Assembly (NCBI GenBank): GCA_964352475.1
Contig: CAYGSL010000002.1
Coordinates: 41,384 to 105,383 of the forward strand
Origin: an uncultured Pseudomonadales bacterium
GTDB lineage: Bacteria > Pseudomonadota > Gammaproteobacteria > Pseudomonadales > JAUIET01
Length of the DNA: 64,000 nucleotides
Direction of reading: 5' to 3'
The notes beneath the pieces are model-generated. The model was not told the DNA's origin. It ran no database searches and saw only the letters and a list, made by a program, of their open reading frames with translations. This document shows, piece after piece, positions 2,610 to 48,658 of this stretch. The number at the start of each line of letters is the position of its first letter. Positions within the stretch are counted from its first letter, which is position 1. A program made the position numbers and the translations under genes.

Positions 2610-4163
2610 ATGGGAGATCATGGTCCAGCAAAAGGCTTAAGCCGATGGCTTTTTACAACCAACCATAAAGATATTGGTACGCTGTACCTTTGGTTCAGTT
2701 TTGCCATGTTTCTGGTTGGCGGTATTTTCGCCCTGGTAATTCGAGCCGAATTGTTCGAGCCCGGTCTGCAAATAGTGCAGCCCGAATTCTTTAACCAGAT
2801 GACCACCATGCATGGTCTTGTGATGGTCTTTGGTGCCGTTATGCCAGCCTTTGTCGGTTTGGCGAACTGGTTGGTGCCAATGATGATTGGTGCGCCGGAC
2901 ATGGCACTGCCACGCATGAACAACTGGAGCTTCTGGATTCTGCCGTTTGCGTTTTTCATGATGTTGTCGTCGCTGTTTGTTGAGGGAGGAGCGCCAAACT
3001 TCGGCTGGACCTTCTACGCACCGCTGTCGACAACCTACGCACCGCCGAGTGTGACCTTCTTTATTTTTGCCGTACACATCATGGGTGCGTCGTCGATCAT
3101 GGGGTCTATTAATATCATCGCGACTATCATGAACCTGCGTGCACCTGGCATGACCTACATGAAAATGCCGCTGTTCGTATGGACGTGGTTCATTACTGCG
3201 TATCTGCTGATTGCGGTTATGCCAGTACTTGCGGGCGTGGTGACCATGATGTTGATGGACATCCACTTCGGCACCAGCTTCTTTAGCGCAGCCGGTGGTG
3301 GTGACCCTGTATTGTTCCAGCACATTTTCTGGTTCTTTGGACACCCTGAGGTGTACATCATGATTCTGCCGGCATTTGGTATTGTGTCGCAGATCATCCC
3401 AACCTTTTCTCGCAAACCGCTGTTTGGCTACGACTCAATGGTGTACGCGACCGCGTCTATCGCGTTCTTGTCATTTATTGTTTGGGCGCACCACATGTTT
3501 ACGGTGGGCATGCCGCTGGCCGGCGAGCTGTTTTTCATGTGGGCAACGATGCTGATTGCAGTACCCACTGGCGTTAAGGTGTTTAACTGGGTAACCACGA
3601 TGTTCCGCGGTTCCATCAGTTTCGAAACGCCGATGCTGTTTTCAATTGCGTTCGTTATTTTGTTCACCATTGGTGGCTTCTCTGGATTGATGTTGGCGAT
3701 AGCGCCGGCTGACTTCCAGTATCACGACACCTACTTTGTGGTCGCGCATTTCCATTACGTACTGGTGCCTGGAGCGATCTTCGGCATTATGGCGGCGGTC
3801 TATTACTGGCTACCAAAATGGTGTGGCAACATGTACGACGAAACCTTGGGCAAAACCCACTTCTGGTTGTCGTTTGTTGGTTTGAACGTGACTTTCTTCC
3901 CAATGCACTTTGTCGGCCTTGCCGGTATGCCGCGTCGTATTCCTGACTACGCCTTGCAGTTTGCTGACTTTAATCAGATTGCCAGTGTGGGTGCGTTCCT
4001 GTTTGGGGCGTCGCAGGTGTTCTTTATGTTCATCGTGATCAAGACCATCATGGGCGGCAAGAAAGCGACTGATCAAGTGTGGGAAAGTGCTGAAGGTCTG
4101 GAGTGGACTATTCCATCGCCAGCGCCCTACCACACATTCACTACACCACCTGAAGTGAAATAA
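2610..4163 (+). CDS. coxA: cytochrome c oxidase subunit I
   Basis: 517 aa, 12-TM profile, motifs WFFGHPEVYIMILPAFG, VWAHHMF, HFHYVL. Strong SD (gagaggag) upstream. Confidence 0.97.
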   Translation: MGDHGPAKGLSRWLFTTNHKDIGTLYLWFSFAMFLVGGIFALVIRAELFEPGLQIVQPEFFNQMTTMHGLVMVFGAVMPAFVGLANWLVPMMIGAPDMALPRMNNWSFWILPFAFFMMLSSLFVEGGAPNFGWTFYAPLSTTYAPPSVTFFIFAVHIMGASSIMGSINIIATIMNLRAPGMTYMKMPLFVWTWFITAYLLIAVMPVLAGVVTMMLMDIHFGTSFFSAAGGGDPVLFQHIFWFFGHPEVYIMILPAFGIVSQIIPTFSRKPLFGYDSMVYATASIAFLSFIVWAHHMFTVGMPLAGELFFMWATMLIAVPTGVKVFNWVTTMFRGSISFETPMLFSIAFVILFTIGGFSGLMLAIAPADFQYHDTYFVVAHFHYVLVPGAIFGIMAAVYYWLPKWCGNMYDETLGKTHFWLSFVGLNVTFFPMHFVGLAGMPRRIPDYALQFADFNQIASVGAFLFGASQVFFMFIVIKTIMGGKKATDQVWESAEGLEWTIPSPAPYHTFTTPPEVK

Positions 4164-46653: not shown

Positions 46654-47859
46654 ATGATAAAGTTTTTCATTCTTGCCCTGATCATTACCGGCCTGGTCAT
46701 AGGCCTGGCAATGCTGGTTGAACGCGACGCCGGCTACATACTAATCGCCTACGACAATACCAGCATAGAGTCCAGTCTATGGGCCGGGCTGTTGGCTCTT
46801 GCGCTAGTCTTGTTTCTGCTTTACTGGCTGGTTCGCCTGATAATGAAAATACGCTATTCAGGCCGCAGCCTCAGATACTGGCGTGAAGGCCGCCAGGCGC
46901 GCAGAAACGAAGCGCAGGTCACCCAGGGCTTAATTCAATACATGGAGGGTGACTGGAAGGCGTCTGCGAAAACATTCTCACGTGGCGCTGAGCGCTCACC
47001 AACCCCCTTGCTTAGCTACCTGATGGCAGCGCGTGCAAGCGACGCTGCGGGTGATACAGCGCAATGCGAAGAGTTTTTAAAGTTAGCGGAAAGCAGCACG
47101 CCGGATGCAAATGTAGCGATTGGTCTTACTCAGGCCGAGCTTCAATTGAACAAGGGTGAATTTGAGAATTGTCTGGCCAACCTCAACAGAATTCGAAGCG
47201 AACAGCCGGAGAATGTGCTGGCATTGCGCTTGTCTGCCGATGTGTATGAGGGCCTGGAAGATTGGGCAGGCCTGCAACAACTTCTGCCTGTTTTGCGTAA
47301 AAAGAAACTGTTGCCGGAAGACACACTGCTTAAGCTCGAACACAAAACTTTCGAGGCGCGACTGGCCAACGTAGAGACAGCCAATGATCTACAAACAATC
47401 TGGAATGAGGTGCCCAAGCATCTTAAGAAAGACCAACAGTTGGTGGCTGAGTACGCCAATGCTCTGATCAGGTTCGATCAGCATAATGACGCGGAGTCTT
47501 TGTTACGGGCCACCCTGAAAAAAGACTGGTCGGCGAAATTACTTGGCATCTACGGCCAGGTGCGTGGTGACCTGAGTAAGCAGCGCTCAGTGGCTGAAGG
47601 CTGGTTAAAGTCACGTCCGGATGATGCTGATTTACTGCAAGCCCTGGGCCGAATATGCGCAGCCGACGGTGCACTTGAAAAAGCACAAGAGTACTTCTCA
47701 TCAAGCCTGGCAATTAAACCTGATTCTGACACTTATGGTGAGCTGGGGCAGCTATACGCCAAAATGGGCGACAGTGAGCAGAGTAATCAGCAATATCAGA
47801 AAGCGCTGGGCATGGATGAGAGTCCGGTTGAGAATGCTTTGCCTGGGCCTGCTGTATAG
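46654..47859 (+). CDS. hemY: HemY protein (membrane-anchored TPR protein)
   Basis: 401 aa. Two N-terminal TM segments, then TPR-like repeats. Last gene of the hemCDXY cluster. Confidence 0.85.
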   Translation: MIKFFILALIITGLVIGLAMLVERDAGYILIAYDNTSIESSLWAGLLALALVLFLLYWLVRLIMKIRYSGRSLRYWREGRQARRNEAQVTQGLIQYMEGDWKASAKTFSRGAERSPTPLLSYLMAARASDAAGDTAQCEEFLKLAESSTPDANVAIGLTQAELQLNKGEFENCLANLNRIRSEQPENVLALRLSADVYEGLEDWAGLQQLLPVLRKKKLLPEDTLLKLEHKTFEARLANVETANDLQTIWNEVPKHLKKDQQLVAEYANALIRFDQHNDAESLLRATLKKDWSAKLLGIYGQVRGDLSKQRSVAEGWLKSRPDDADLLQALGRICAADGALEKAQEYFSSSLAIKPDSDTYGELGQLYAKMGDSEQSNQQYQKALGMDESPVENALPGPAV

Positions 47860-47913
47860 TTCTTTGTTTGAGTTCGTTACTGAACGGAATTCGCGTTTAG
47901 CGTCGAGACCGGC

Positions 47914-48019
47914 GTTGGGTCGCATATACGCTTTTGGGACACGACGTGAATACATCCCTGTAGTCTTGTGTTCGGGGTCCCTCCCTCACACAGTCCCAAA
48001 AGCGTATATGCGACCCAAC
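47914..48019. repeat. palindrome A: 27-bp perfect arms around a 52-nt conserved core
   Basis: gttgggtcgcatatacgcttttgggac (47914-47940) is the exact reverse complement of 47993-48019. The loop 47941-47992 is acgacgtgaatacatccctgtagtcttgtgttcggggtccctccctcacaca. Confidence 0.95.
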
Positions 48020-48020
48020 A

Positions 48021-48080
48021 CCTCAGTGCAAAAGTTAGAATTCTGTGCTTGAAAAAATAAACCAAAAATCAGCACTGAGG
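48021..48080. repeat. middle hairpin: 9-bp arms around a 42-nt A-rich loop
   Basis: cctcagtgc (48021-48029) / gcactgagg (48072-48080). Loop: aaaagttagaattctgtgcttgaaaaaataaaccaaaaatca. Confidence 0.85.
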
Positions 48081-48190
48081 CGACGAATAGAATAGGCGCT
48101 AGATAGACTGTGTGAGAGAGGGACCTCGAACACAAGCCCCCATGGATGGGTTCACGGCGTGTCTATCTAGCGCCTATTCTATTCGTCGCC
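48079..48190. repeat. palindrome B: 28-30-bp perfect arms around the inverted copy of the 52-nt core
   Basis: ggcgacgaatagaataggcgctagatagac (48079-48108) is the exact reverse complement of 48161-48190. The loop 48109-48160 is the reverse complement of loop A at 43/52 positions. The arms are unrelated to the arms of A. Confidence 0.95.
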
Positions 48191-48229
48191 GGTCTCCAAA
48201 AGAAACCCCAAACCTTCGAGGTTAAACTA

Positions 48230-48658
48230 TTAAACCCAATCAACTTCCCAACCACCAGCCTGCTCCCGCAAACTGGCCAACATACTTCGCTGCGACTCCT
48301 CGGAATGCGCAATCGCATCAACAACCCCCCACACCGGTTTAGGCCAAGCGGCGTCATTAGTGAATCGCGCAATATGATGAACATGAAGTTGCGGAACCAT
48401 ATTACCAAGGGCCGCCACATTCATTTTGTCGGCACGAAAAGCCAATGCCATCGCTTCAGAAAGCGAATTGGATTCTTTGTTTAGCTGAAGTTGCTGATTA
48501 GCAGACAACTGAAAAGCCTCGCGAATATCAGCAACGCGAGGAACCAGAATAAACCAGGGGTAGTGTCGGTCGTTCAGAAGAAGTAGGCGACATAGAGGTA
48601 AATCGCCGACGTGTATACAGTCGGCGGCTAGGCGTTCATGCAGAACAAAGTCTGCCAT
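48230..48658 (-). CDS. HIT family (histidine triad) nucleotide hydrolase
   Basis: 142 aa. Histidine triad QLHVHHIAR. Confidence 0.88.
   Translation of the reverse strand: MADFVLHERLAADCIHVGDLPLCRLLLLNDRHYPWFILVPRVADIREAFQLSANQQLQLNKESNSLSEAMALAFRADKMNVAALGNMVPQLHVHHIARFTNDAAWPKPVWGVVDAIAHSEESQRSMLASLREQAGGWEVDWV

What the first reader, a model, noticed from the sequence alone, without database searches (positions are those of the whole stretch)
47905..48196. Cloverleaf of perfect palindromes: one conserved 52-58 bp module at the apex of two unrelated 27-30 bp stems
All of this is read directly from the sequence. An 8-9 bp outer inverted repeat (gagaccggc 47905-47913 / gccggtctc 48188-48196) encloses three hairpins separated by 0-1 nt. 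Hairpin A has 27-bp perfect arms (47914-47940 / 47993-48019) and a 52-nt loop. The middle hairpin has 9-bp arms (48021-48029 / 48072-48080) and a 42-nt A-rich loop. Hairpin B has 28-30-bp perfect arms (48079-48108 / 48161-48190) and a 52-nt loop. The arms of A and B share no similarity. The two loops, however, are reverse complements of each other at 43/52 positions, and both are bounded by gac...gtc. So one roughly 58-bp module occurs twice, in opposite orientation, each time capping its own perfect palindrome. This is the reverse of the usual patterns: MITE/IS elements have conserved ends and direct target duplications, REP elements and terminators have conserved stems, and attC sites have conserved ends with a variable centre. 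On a single transcript the two loops could also pair with each other, giving an alternative long helix. As DNA, they are 52-bp inverted repeats flanking 47993-48108. Possible readings are: a structured ncRNA with fully covarying stems; a small element that inserts into hairpin apices or creates inverted target duplications; or an inversion/recombination site. It may also serve as a terminator for the convergent hemY and HIT genes.
Basis: seen in the sequence. Interest (0 to 1): 0.7.

Follow-up and report, generated by a model that had tools for sequence, protein, structure and literature searches.

The report
Paired TwoAYGGAY-like CsrA-decoy RNA elements
The "cloverleaf" is two back-to-back copies of a roughly 130-base structured RNA element, a divergent relative of the little-studied TwoAYGGAY motif, which shows two protein-binding-type loops on top of a long stem and is scattered in many copies through environmental and plant-pathogen gammaproteobacterial genomes.

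Summary
The sequence features are real, but the anatomy was misread. The "outer repeat" and "middle hairpin" are the conserved ends of one ~130-nt unit present twice, head-to-head: copy A at 47903-48032 (-) and copy B at 48069-48198 (+). Each unit is a 30-bp stem (P1) capped by a three-way junction with two short hairpins (P2, P3). The arms are not unrelated; they are homologous and evolve fast by compensatory change.

The unit belongs to a dispersed multi-copy family: 61 copies in 340 kb from four related MAGs, and about 100 more in diverse metagenomes, Xanthomonas and Stenotrophomonas. Covariation is overwhelming (95-98% paired; 29-40 of 45 pairs with double changes). Stem mismatches are G.U on one strand only (57 vs 6 lineage-collapsed events). 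That same strand shows GGA in both apical loops (CANGGANG, the CsrA/RsmA site).

One intermediate copy matches Rfam TwoAYGGAY (RF01731, Csr/Rsm clan) at 37.8 bits against a cutoff of 43. The window copies do not match. Published Xanthomonas sRNA candidates SRC020 and SRC291 map onto such pairs.

Adjacent copies are head-to-head in 37 of 38 cases. The locus shows presence/absence and inversion between relatives.

Verdict: a new variant of a known kind. CsrA binding is inferred, not shown.

The parts
47903..48032 (-). Copy A of the ~130-nt element (functional strand is -): 5' UUUGCACUGA - P1 - three-way junction - P1' - GGUCUCGA 3'
   Evidence: Covariance model R1, 142.3 bits; RNA fold -73.9 kcal/mol, z = -10.0; coordinates verified
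47993..48022 (-). Copy A, P1 5' arm (GGUGUUGGGUCGCAUAUACGCUUUUGGGAC)
   Evidence: the repeat finder I2; 29 Watson-Crick pairs plus one pair that is G.U on the - strand only
47967..47992 (-). Copy A, P2 hairpin UGUGU-GA-GGG[AGGGAC]CCC-GA-ACACA; tandem G.A internal loop; apical loop with GGA at 47977-47982
   Evidence: Consensus fold and covariation (G-C/A-U 19:15 at the middle pair)
47943..47965 (-). Copy A, P3 hairpin GAC-UACA[GGGA]UGUA-UUCAC-GUC; reads ACAGGGAUGU, an 11/12 match to the CsrA SELEX consensus RUACARGGAUGU
   Evidence: consensus from PMC4347634
47911..47940 (-). Copy A, P1 3' arm
48033..48068 (.). 36-nt A/T-rich spacer between the two 5' ends (75% A+T); not conserved between loci
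   Evidence: no sigma-70-like promoter detected
48069..48198 (+). Copy B of the element (functional strand is +)
   Evidence: R1 142.9 bits; fold -74.6 kcal/mol, z = -8.8, MFE equals the consensus structure; independent assemblies of the same strain break inside it
48079..48108 (+). Copy B, P1 5' arm (30/30 Watson-Crick with 48161-48190)
   Evidence: the repeat finder I1
48109..48134 (+). Copy B, P2 hairpin UGUGU-GA-GAG[AGGGAC]CUC-GA-ACACA; apical loop 48119-48124
48136..48158 (+). Copy B, P3 hairpin GCC-CCCA[UGGA]UGGG-UUCAC-GGC; reads CAUGGAUG = CANGGANG / AYGGAY; loop 48143-48146
   Evidence: Rsm consensus from PMC6849547
48161..48190 (+). Copy B, P1 3' arm
48204..48223 (-). Terminator-like hairpin plus U-run belonging to the HIT gene, between its stop codon and copy B (context, not part of the element)
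46654..47859 (+). hemY (context): stop codon 44 nt from copy A's 3' end
   Evidence: ORF; the orthologue carries Pfam HemY_N
48230..48658 (-). HIT-family hydrolase gene (context): stop codon 32 nt from copy B's 3' end
   Evidence: ORF; Pfam HIT

Best explanation
The region holds two head-to-head copies of a ~130-nt structured RNA element that works at the level of one strand. Each copy folds into a 30-bp helix (P1) capped by a three-way junction whose two short hairpins (P2, P3) each show a GGA motif in the apical loop, about 23 nt apart. This is a divergent branch of the TwoAYGGAY RNA motif (Rfam RF01731, Csr/Rsm clan). The most likely mechanism is that the transcribed element binds one dimer of the global regulator CsrA/RsmA through its two GGA loops. 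The many dispersed copies would then act together as a distributed decoy or sponge (or as local recruitment sites). The long P1 gives nuclease-resistant stability or an RNase III processing site. The family multiplies and is lost like a repeat element, by an unknown route, and settles at gene 3' ends, typically as divergent pairs. Shown here: the fold, its strand, the GGA loops, family membership by homology, multi-copy dispersal, the pairing rule, gain/loss/inversion, and expression of Xanthomonas members. Inferred: CsrA/RsmA binding, the decoy function, which strand is transcribed, and the mode of spread.
For: Anatomy: the two units align end to end and give a gapless 130-column family alignment. 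Fold: 98.3% of cells paired versus 28-41% for slid controls, with 29/45 pairs showing double changes. On 75 diverse metagenome copies: 95.1% paired versus 36-41%, 40/45 pairs. Single-strand selection: P1 mismatches are 57 G.U versus 6 A.C after collapsing lineages, p = 1.6e-11; 87 versus 9 in the independent set. GGA loops: 95/114 predicted apical loops carry GGA on that strand versus 0/112 on the other; 166/191 versus 1/197 in the unbiased set. Three structurally different P2 versions all keep GGA in the loop, and an expanded copy adds two more CANGGANG hairpins. Motif definitions checked in the literature: RUACARGGAUGU with GGA in hairpin loops (PMC4347634); A/U-CANGGANG-U/A for the RsmE dimer (PMC6849547). 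Known family: L098:1001-1130 matches RF01731 over model positions 1-168 at 37.8 bits, E = 7.8e-5, with the same hairpins and the 'uuuac..CGG' junction. TwoAYGGAY was described with two AYGGAY loops and a very large P1 (PMC2864571 supplement), and was predicted to bind CsrA and to carry tandem G.A pairs (PMC4333381). Expression: Xcc 8004 sRNA candidates SRC020 (RPKM 262) and SRC291/sRX102 (RPKM 437, northern positive) map onto a pair's spacer and the 5' halves of the copies. Xanthomonas has RsmA but no CsrB/RsmX/Y/Z homologue.
Against: No binding, and no strand-resolved transcript data, exists for any member; the Xcc RNA-seq was non-strand-specific. No sigma-70-like promoter or intrinsic terminator was found at the window pair or the Xcc pair, and there is no conserved upstream motif. 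The window copies are not recognised by RF01731 even at E <= 10, and none of ~20 diverse copies reaches its gathering score. The window P2 loop is AGGGAC, not AYGGAY. I could not verify a csrA gene in the window's clade. G.T wobble is also tolerated in single-stranded DNA, so the strand asymmetry alone does not prove RNA. Core modules are exchanged between copies, so core conservation may partly reflect concerted evolution rather than selection on each copy.
Confidence: 0.6

Rival explanations
1. A single-stranded-DNA mobile repeat (REP/REPIN- or MITE-like). The hairpin and its apex would be the recognition structure of a trans-acting transposase or HUH nuclease, the GGA loops would be incidental, and there would be no RNA function. 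(This could also coexist with the RNA reading, as the way the family spreads.)
For: Multi-copy dispersal in intergenic 3' regions. A young near-identical subfamily. Presence/absence and rearrangement at the orthologous locus. Inverted doublets as in BIMEs/REPINs. Assemblies break at copies. Three remnants share one breakpoint after UUYAC. G.T wobble is tolerated in ssDNA.
Against: No Y1/HUH transposase or any recurrent non-metabolic gene near 61 copies. No conserved terminal repeats, no GTAG, no consistent target duplication. The conserved part is the apex, not the stem. Three different P2 architectures all preserve a CANGGANG-type loop, and insertions add more of them, which a nuclease site does not predict. 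Homology to an RNA motif in the Csr/Rsm clan. RNA detected in Xcc.
Confidence: 0.15
2. A structured RNA that binds a different dimeric protein, or acts through loop-loop or antisense pairing between the two complementary cores of a pair, rather than through CsrA/RsmA.
For: Two near-identical loops suggest a homodimer but do not name it (PMC2864571 context). In a read-through transcript the two cores of a pair are complementary (43/52). In the Xcc RsmU study, mutating all predicted GGA motifs did not abolish RsmA binding, so GGA counting is an imperfect predictor.
Against: The loop consensus is the specific CANGGANG / ACARGGAUGU CsrA site, not merely GGA. Rfam curators place the related family in the Csr/Rsm clan. 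Singles are as common as pairs, so core-core pairing cannot be the general mechanism.
Confidence: 0.12
3. A passive 3'-end hairpin (REP-like mRNA stabiliser, RNase III site or transcription barrier between convergent genes) with no specific ligand.
For: Location within 14-70 nt of stop codons, mostly between convergent genes in the clade. A 30-bp perfect helix is a potential RNase III substrate and exonuclease block (inference).
Against: This does not explain the invariant unpaired nucleotides of the apex while P1 diverges by about 43%, the strand-specific GGA loops, or the orientation antisense to neighbouring tandem genes (12:2 and 5:3). No U-tract follows the stem.
Confidence: 0.08
4. One reading: a small core element that inserts into the apex of pre-existing hairpins (or creates inverted target duplications), or a programmed invertible DNA switch.
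For: Each copy has private arms. The whole pair is inverted relative to hemY/HIT compared with L036, L042, L043 and L045.
Against: The arms are homologous across copies with a clear consensus, and orthologous copies keep related arms. The outer stem P0 occurs only with elements. There is no recombinase nearby, no promoter to switch, and the pair is symmetric, so inversion changes nothing obvious. The window's spacer haplotype differs from that of its 98%-identical relative, which fits recombinational replacement rather than switching.
Confidence: 0.03

Closest known systems
TwoAYGGAY RNA motif (Rfam RF01731; Weinberg et al. 2010, PMC2864571; predicted CsrA binder, Gardner & Eldai 2015, PMC4333381)
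   Same: A large P1 closing a three-way junction. Two short hairpins with A-N-GGA-Y apical loops. Tandem G.A pairs in the first hairpin. A shared 'UUUAC..CGG' strand after the second hairpin. A full-length sub-threshold model match by an intermediate copy.
   Different: The window copies and all ~20 diverse copies tested fall below the curated score. In the window clade the P2 loop is AGGGAC and P3 is much shorter than in the Rfam consensus. P1 is a continuous 30-bp near-perfect helix. Dispersed multi-copy occurrence, obligatory head-to-head pairing, gain/loss/inversion, and presence in Xanthomonadaceae and marine Pseudomonadales are not in the published descriptions I could read.
Csr/Rsm decoy sRNAs (CsrB, CsrC, RsmX/Y/Z; Rfam clan CL00106)
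   Same: GGA motifs shown in hairpin loops with CANGGANG context, proposed to titrate CsrA/RsmA dimers. The expanded copy L011:6961-7163 has five hairpins and gives a faint RsmY match (12 bits).
   Different: Those are one to a few dedicated genes per genome, with many GGA sites per RNA, GacA/UvrY-dependent promoters and intrinsic terminators. Here there are two sites per unit on a long stem, tens of units per genome, and no recognisable promoter or terminator.
RsmU (sRX061) of Xanthomonas campestris (Tang et al. 2020, PMC7694677)
   Same: A GGA-bearing RNA lying just downstream of a gene in a host that lacks CsrB/RsmXYZ. RsmA binding was shown experimentally for RsmU.
   Different: RsmU is a single-copy, ~77-100-nt, terminator-ended 3'UTR fragment with no long P1 and no sequence similarity. 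The family here corresponds instead to the same study's uncharacterised SRC020 and SRC291/sRX102.
REP/BIME and REPIN elements; structured interspersed repeats such as ERIC, Correia and bcr1 (comparison from my own knowledge of these families)
   Same: Intergenic, multi-copy, palindromic, frequent inverted doublets, located at gene 3' ends, hairpin maintained by compensatory change, cause assembly breaks.
   Different: In those families the stem or terminal repeats are the conserved part, and a transposase (RAYT, IS) or target duplication is known. Here the apex is conserved, the stems are private, no GTAG motif, no TSD and no linked transposase were found.

Membership tests
TwoAYGGAY RNA motif (RF01731) | Score at or above Rfam's curated gathering threshold (43 bits) | tested here: not met
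   Window copies: no RF01731 match even at E <= 10. Best family member, L098:1001-1130, scores 37.8 bits over the full model, E = 7.8e-5. 0 of ~20 copies in 14 loci reach the threshold.
TwoAYGGAY RNA motif (RF01731) | Two terminal loops each containing AYGGAY | tested here: not met
   Copy B: P3 AUGGAU fits, P2 AGGGAC does not (R in place of Y). Copy A: AGGGAU and AGGGAC. In the wider family both loops are mostly AUGGAU/AUGGAC. The looser feature, GGA in both apical loops, is met in 44/54 clade copies.
TwoAYGGAY RNA motif (RF01731) | Three-way junction closed by a (often very large) P1 stem | tested here: met
   30-bp P1 plus P2 and P3; covariation; published description.
TwoAYGGAY RNA motif (RF01731) | Tandem G.A pairs in a stem of the first hairpin | tested here: met
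   GA/GA internal loop between P2a and P2b in type I and type II copies, including both window copies; feature cited in PMC4333381.
TwoAYGGAY RNA motif (RF01731) | Sequence homology traceable to seed-like members | tested here: met
   Copy B contains the exact 25-mer CCCATGGATGGGTTCACGGCGTGTC used. L098 shares it, scores 93 bits with the window-clade model R1, and aligns to RF01731 including 'uuuac..CGG'.
Csr/Rsm decoy sRNAs (CsrB/RsmY/RsmZ type) | Several GGA motifs in hairpin loops matching the CsrA/RsmE consensus | tested here: met
   CAUGGAUG / ACAGGGAUGU in P3 and A-N-GGA in P2; strand-specific; consensus checked.
Csr/Rsm decoy sRNAs (CsrB/RsmY/RsmZ type) | Physical binding and titration of CsrA/RsmA | not testable with these tools
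   Needs EMSA, CLIP or genetics. Only a prediction exists for TwoAYGGAY.
Csr/Rsm decoy sRNAs (CsrB/RsmY/RsmZ type) | Dedicated gene with its own promoter and Rho-independent terminator; match to a curated model | tested here: not met
   No sigma-70-like promoter or terminator at the window or Xcc pair; no conserved upstream motif; RsmY match only 12 bits versus 57.
REP / BIME / REPIN (RAYT-mobilised) | Short imperfect palindrome with a conserved stem and 5' GTAG-type motif | tested here: not met
   The unit is 130 nt; the stem is the variable part; no GTAG at either end.
REP / BIME / REPIN (RAYT-mobilised) | A RAYT (Y1 transposase) gene flanked by copies in the same genome | tested here: inconclusive
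   None in ~900 kb of element-bearing sequence held. The queries were recalled from memory, and whole genomes could not be scanned.
MITE | Conserved terminal inverted repeats and target-site duplications | tested here: not met
   The arms differ between copies. The 5' and 3' end motifs (GGCACUGAGG / CCGGUCU) are not inverted repeats of each other. No consistent duplication flanks the young subfamily.
Integron attC site | R''(RYYYAAC) ... R'(GTTRRRY) core sites in that order, imperfect stem with extrahelical bases | tested here: not met
   Read from the sequence: copy A has GTTGGGT ... ACCCAAC only by virtue of its palindrome and in the reverse order; copy B has neither; the stems are perfect.
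Intrinsic terminator | G+C-rich stem followed directly by a U-run | tested here: not met
   No U-run follows P1 on either strand. The only terminator-like site is HIT's own hairpin at 48223-48204.

The most novel reading that the evidence does not exclude
A self-propagating family of CsrA/RsmA-decoy RNA genes. Tens of copies per genome together form a 'distributed sponge' whose dosage evolves by gain, loss and recombination of copies. They spread by an as yet unknown mechanism with no cis-encoded protein, and they settle almost without exception as divergent (head-to-head) pairs. In Xanthomonas and many environmental gammaproteobacteria that lack CsrB/RsmXYZ, this family (including the already detected sRX102/SRC020 RNAs) would be the main missing antagonist of RsmA.
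Probability: 0.2. Interest if true: 0.8.

Novelty: new variant of a known kind. Interest (0 to 1): 0.5.

Why it matters
TwoAYGGAY has been an orphan motif since 2010. CsrA binding was predicted in 2015 but never tested, and recent papers still call its function unknown.

This finding extends the motif in three ways:
- **Host range:** it reaches a large, uncatalogued branch that Rfam's model misses. The branch is present in marine Pseudomonadales, Stenotrophomonas and the plant pathogen Xanthomonas campestris.
- **Genomic behaviour:** the branch behaves like a repeat family, with many copies, a near-absolute head-to-head pairing rule, fast compensated stem turnover, gain, loss and inversion.
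- **Existing data:** it connects the motif to expression data already published, namely SRC020 and SRC291/sRX102 in Xcc 8004.

The last point makes an open question directly testable in a tractable organism: what antagonises RsmA in Xanthomonas, where no CsrB/RsmXYZ homologue exists?

It also raises a general question of how a non-coding RNA gene with no linked enzyme multiplies within genomes.

Practically, a better covariance model would annotate hundreds of currently anonymous intergenic hairpins and explain recurrent assembly breaks.

Tried and rejected
1. Rfam on the window (gathering and E <= 10) and on six loci: nothing meaningful. Generic miRNA-precursor hits on both strands are artefacts of any long hairpin.
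2. blastn against plasmids gave no match. The viral-contig scan gave 0 matches, so there is no sign of a phage or plasmid origin.
3. Outer-flank pairing as a general feature: not significant for most copies. It is real only as an extra ~20-bp stem P0 in one young subfamily, and P0 never occurs without the element. The idea of insertion into a pre-existing hairpin is therefore rejected.
4. Linked protein: the recurrent neighbours are thiolases, SDRs, acyl-CoA ligases and ABC-F proteins, which are large metabolic paralogue families. tblastn with CsrA, IS200 TnpA and a RAYT-like query found nothing reliable. One weak CsrA-like ORF in L111 was not trusted.
5. Pairs as recent inverted duplications: partners are no more alike than random copies (16.4 vs 18.2 of 30). 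Rejected.
6. Pairs as composite transposed units: the spacers are unrelated in length and sequence. Rejected.
7. sigma-54 (-24 TGGCAC) and GacA-box readings of the conserved 5' end and of P0: the spacing does not fit (read from the sequence). Dropped.
8. attC reading: the GTTRRRY/RYYYAAC in copy A is in the wrong order and absent from copy B. Dropped.
9. RsmU as a member: its primers and coordinates show a different, terminator-ended RNA. Rejected.
10. A target-site duplication could not be established from the young subfamily.
11. The history of the hemY-HIT spacer could not be fully reconstructed.
Full report
**1. Observation.**
- Arms 47911-47940/47993-48022 are 30 nt and 97% complementary.
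- Arms 48079-48108/48161-48190 are 30 nt and 100% complementary.
- Each pair encloses 52 nt, and the two 52-nt loops are reverse complements at 43/52 positions.
- The short repeats GAGACCGGC and CCTCAGTGC are also present.

Chance cannot produce this. About 6e-12 perfect 30-bp inverted repeats are expected in 64 kb, and the core 28-mer is never found in shuffles.

**2. Corrected anatomy.**
When 47905-48025 is laid beside the reverse complement of 48076-48196, the two align from end to end.
- Copy A is 47903-48032, copy B is 48069-48198, and 36 nt lie between them.
- The arms are not unrelated. They are identical at 17 of 30 positions in register, and all 13 differences are compensated in the partner arm.
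- Of the nine differences between the cores, eight form four compensated pairs. The ninth is the variable N of a CANGGANG loop.

**3. A repeat family with a very well supported fold.**
An exact-pattern scan of one genome per species found 44 copies in 39 loci of four gammaproteobacterial MAGs. A covariance model built from 35 copies raised this to 61 copies in 340 kb, with only the two in the 64-kb window. Every copy has its own compensated stem.

The consensus structure is as follows:
- P1 is a 30-bp helix.
- P2 is UGUGU/ACACA, then a tandem G.A internal loop, then GGG/CCC with a hexaloop.
- P3 is GCC/GGC enclosing CCCA/UGGG with a tetraloop and a UUYAC bulge.

On the gapless alignment, 98.3% of cells form standard pairs, against 28-41% when partners are slid by 1-3 columns. 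29 of 45 pairs show changes on both sides.

**4. Which strand, and what it displays.**
P1 mismatches are almost all transitions in one direction.
- After collapsing related copies, there are 57 G.U events on one strand against 6 on the other (p = 1.6e-11).
- Duplex DNA cannot feel that difference, so selection acts on a single strand: minus for copy A, plus for copy B.
- On that strand, 95 of 114 predicted apical loops contain GGA. On the other strand, 0 of 112 do.
- P3 reads CAUGGAUG, or ACAGGGAUGU in copy A. The P2 loop reads AGGGAC.

These match the CsrA SELEX consensus RUACARGGAUGU, with GGA in a hairpin loop (PMC4347634), and the RsmE consensus A/U-CANGGANG-U/A (PMC6849547).

Because my first scan pattern had fixed most of P2, I examined copies found only by the model.
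- P2 occurs in three different architectures, and all keep GGA in the loop.
- A 203-nt expanded copy (L011:6961-7163) adds two further hairpins, CACAUGGAUGUG and GGCAGGAUGCC.

**5. An unbiased, much wider sample.**
There were no hits in viral contigs.
- In 80 loci, the model finds about 100 near-full copies with 49-77% G+C.
- P2 is there typically NNNGCC-AUGGAU-GGCNNN.
- 166 of 191 apical loops carry GGA, against 1 of 197 on the other strand.
- P1 has 87 G.U against 9 A.C.
- On 75 of these copies the fold is 95.1% paired, against 36-41% for slid controls, with 40 of 45 pairs doubly changed.

**6. Relation to a known family.**
Among these diverse copies, L098:1001-1130 matches Rfam RF01731, the TwoAYGGAY RNA motif, over the whole model at 37.8 bits (gathering score 43; E = 7.8e-5 in a 231-nt query). 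That family sits in clan CL00106 together with RsmY.

The Rfam consensus has the same plan and shares sequence:
- a long outer helix;
- ggaCAuGGAUGucc;
- GCCaUGGAuGGC;
- then 'guuuacgaCGG'.

What the literature says about the motif:
- The original description gives two AYGGAY terminal loops and a P1 that is 'often very large (e.g., 24 base pairs...)', in Clostridia, gammaproteobacteria and the human gut (PMC2864571 supplement).
- A later study predicted CsrA binding and cites work that identified two tandem G.A pairs in one stem (PMC4333381). That matches what I had inferred independently.
- The motif is still called relatively unexplored and of unknown function.

Membership by the curated model fails for the window copies (no match at E <= 10) and for all ~20 diverse copies tested at the gathering threshold. 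Their P2 loop, AGGGAC, is not AYGGAY. I therefore treat the window elements as a divergent, uncatalogued branch of that motif, linked by intermediates. Copy B carries the exact 25-mer shared with L098.

**7. Cultured hosts and expression.**
- One GC-rich host is a Xanthomonadaceae: PepP is 87% identical to Stenotrophomonas and 83% to Xanthomonas.
- In complete genomes, the model finds a head-to-head pair in X. campestris CP155990.1 (L168 3349-3477 minus, 3608-3738 plus) and a copy downstream of pepP in Stenotrophomonas sp. 169.
- In Xcc 8004, Tang et al. (PMC7694677) listed two 'homologous' intergenic sRNA candidates. SRC020 is 203 nt with RPKM 262. SRC291, also called sRX102, is 81 nt with RPKM 437 and a positive northern blot.
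- By blastn, these map onto the spacer of such a pair plus the 5' halves of the copies.

So family members are expressed. The library was not strand-specific, however, and the strand calls are only in figure images. The ends of these candidates, at the P2 loop, may simply reflect mappability of repeated and palindromic sequence.

The same paper states that no CsrB/RsmX/Y/Z homologue exists in any Xanthomonas. It describes RsmU, which is a different, terminator-ended RNA.

**8. Genomic behaviour.**
- **Location:** copies are intergenic and, in the clade, mostly between convergent genes (18 convergent, 10 tandem, 1 divergent).
- **Pairing rule:** adjacent copies are head-to-head, with the 5' ends of the GGA strand facing, in 16 of 17 cases in the clade and 21 of 21 in the metagenome set. 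Gaps range from 16 to 337 nt, with unrelated spacers. Partners are no more similar than random copies.
- **Orientation of singles:** between tandem genes, the GGA strand is mostly antisense to the genes (12:2 and 5:3). ORF calls in GC-rich DNA are noisy, so this is only suggestive.
- **Neighbouring genes:** no mobilisation gene recurs nearby.
- **Young subfamily:** one near-identical subfamily carries an additional ~20-bp outer stem.

At the orthologous hemY-HIT spacer:
- The most distant relative (L036, about 80% DNA identity) has the same two copies but in swapped order. A and B orthology is clear (107/127 and 112/127 identical, against about 85/127 for cross pairs).
- Three closer relatives keep only a B-type left end, and all three are broken after core position 5.
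- In one relative the genes abut.
- The window's own strain is confirmed by independent assemblies that break inside copy B.
- The window's spacer and B arm differ far more from its 98%-identical relative than the flanking genes do, which suggests recombinational replacement.

In another orthologous pair, the stems are conserved (25/30) but the P2 module has been exchanged. Modules therefore move between copies, and core conservation may be partly concerted.

**9. Mechanism proposed.**

Shown:
- a one-strand fold with two GGA loops on a long stem;
- homology to TwoAYGGAY;
- multi-copy dispersal and the pairing rule;
- gain, loss and inversion;
- expression in Xcc.

Inferred:
- each unit binds one CsrA/RsmA dimer through its two loops, about 23 nt apart;
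- the copies collectively titrate the regulator or recruit it locally;
- P1 gives stability or an RNase III site;
- the head-to-head rule and the coverage of the Xcc spacer fit divergent transcription from the spacer, or read-through that meets the sense copy second.

No promoter or terminator was detected, and I could not verify csrA in the window's clade. I put the identity of the element at about 0.85 and the CsrA mechanism at about 0.5. The overall figure of 0.6 is for the combined statement.

**10. Rivals.**
- **ssDNA transposable repeat:** this explains dispersal but not the loop conservation across three P2 architectures, the homology to an RNA motif, or the absence of a transposase. 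It may still describe how copies spread.
- **Other ligand, or core-core pairing:** not excluded.
- **Passive 3' hairpin:** does not explain the invariant apex.
- **Apex insertion and a programmed inversion switch:** rejected for the reasons given in the rival entries.

**11. Verdict.**
The finding is real and more interesting than REP-like debris, but it is not a new kind of thing. It is a pair of divergent TwoAYGGAY-like elements.

The new elements are:
- the breadth of an uncatalogued branch;
- its repeat-like dynamics and pairing rule;
- the link to expressed but uncharacterised Xanthomonas sRNAs, which makes the long-standing CsrA-binding prediction testable.

Noticed in passing
window 48204-48223 (-): Terminator-like hairpin plus U-run (AACCUCGAAGGUU..UCUUUUGG) directly after the HIT stop codon and immediately before copy B. 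HIT transcription may therefore stop before reaching the element.
   Followed up: partly
L011:6961-7163 (-): A 203-nt expanded copy with five hairpins. The inserted ones, CACAUGGAUGUG and GGCAGGAUGCC, are textbook CsrA-type sites. It gives a faint RsmY match (12 bits, E~1). It looks like a step toward a multi-site CsrB-like RNA.
   Followed up: partly
L002:6490-6650 and L004:2147-2312: Copies in two different MAGs share a ~31-nt extra hairpin (AAAGC...GCUUU) inserted between P3 and the junction. It has no GGA, and the private P1 arms are intact.
   Followed up: no
L016, L025, L028, L032, L034, L008, L023 (flanks of the 130-nt unit): A young, near-identical subfamily in MAG SGMAG-84 carries an extra ~20-bp outer stem (GAAUGGCACUUACUUAAGCA / UGCUUAAGUAAGUACCAUUC), giving a ~200-nt element. 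In L025 complementarity extends about 15 bp further still. Possible 5-6-bp direct repeats at two copies (L016 TCAGA, L028 CTGACC) were not consistent enough to call a target duplication.
   Followed up: partly
L042 ~2430-2497, L043 ~2430-2546, L045 ~2271-2389 (hemY-HIT spacers of relatives): Three lineages keep the same truncated B-type left end, and all break at the identical point: after ACGCC on the displayed strand, which is UUYAC|GGCGU on the functional strand. Each has a different sequence to the right. This is either one ancestral deletion or a preferred breakage or cleavage site.
   Followed up: partly
window 47860-48229 versus L042: The flanking genes are 97-98% identical to L042, but the spacer haplotype and the B-copy arm (22/30) are far more divergent, and the pair is inverted. 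The spacer seems to have a separate history (recombinational replacement or re-insertion).
   Followed up: partly
L021:5041-5317 versus L038:60-335: In orthologous pairs of two species, the right-hand copies share stems (25/30) but carry different P2 modules (type I vs type II), with the reverse on the left. Apical modules are exchanged independently of the stems.
   Followed up: partly
L040, L041 and many metagenome loci (e.g. L048, L061, L072, L088, L113): Contigs frequently end inside a copy. The family is a recurrent cause of assembly breaks, which also implies multiple copies in those genomes.
   Followed up: no
L111:3745-4020 (-): A 91-aa ORF with weak similarity to CsrA (33% over 51 aa, E = 1e-5) on a contig that also carries an element. 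It is too divergent to call.
   Followed up: partly
Literature: PMC7694677, Fig. S2: The same Xcc study reports a second set of multi-copy sRNA candidates (SRC017/SRC434/SRC565), unrelated in sequence to this family. It may be another uncharacterised repeat-borne RNA.
   Followed up: no
window 48080-48189 and many loci: Plant and animal miRNA-precursor models (e.g. MIR533 at 34 bits, on both strands) match these hairpins at low E-values in short queries. This is an artefact of any long near-perfect hairpin and a trap for automated annotation.
   Followed up: yes
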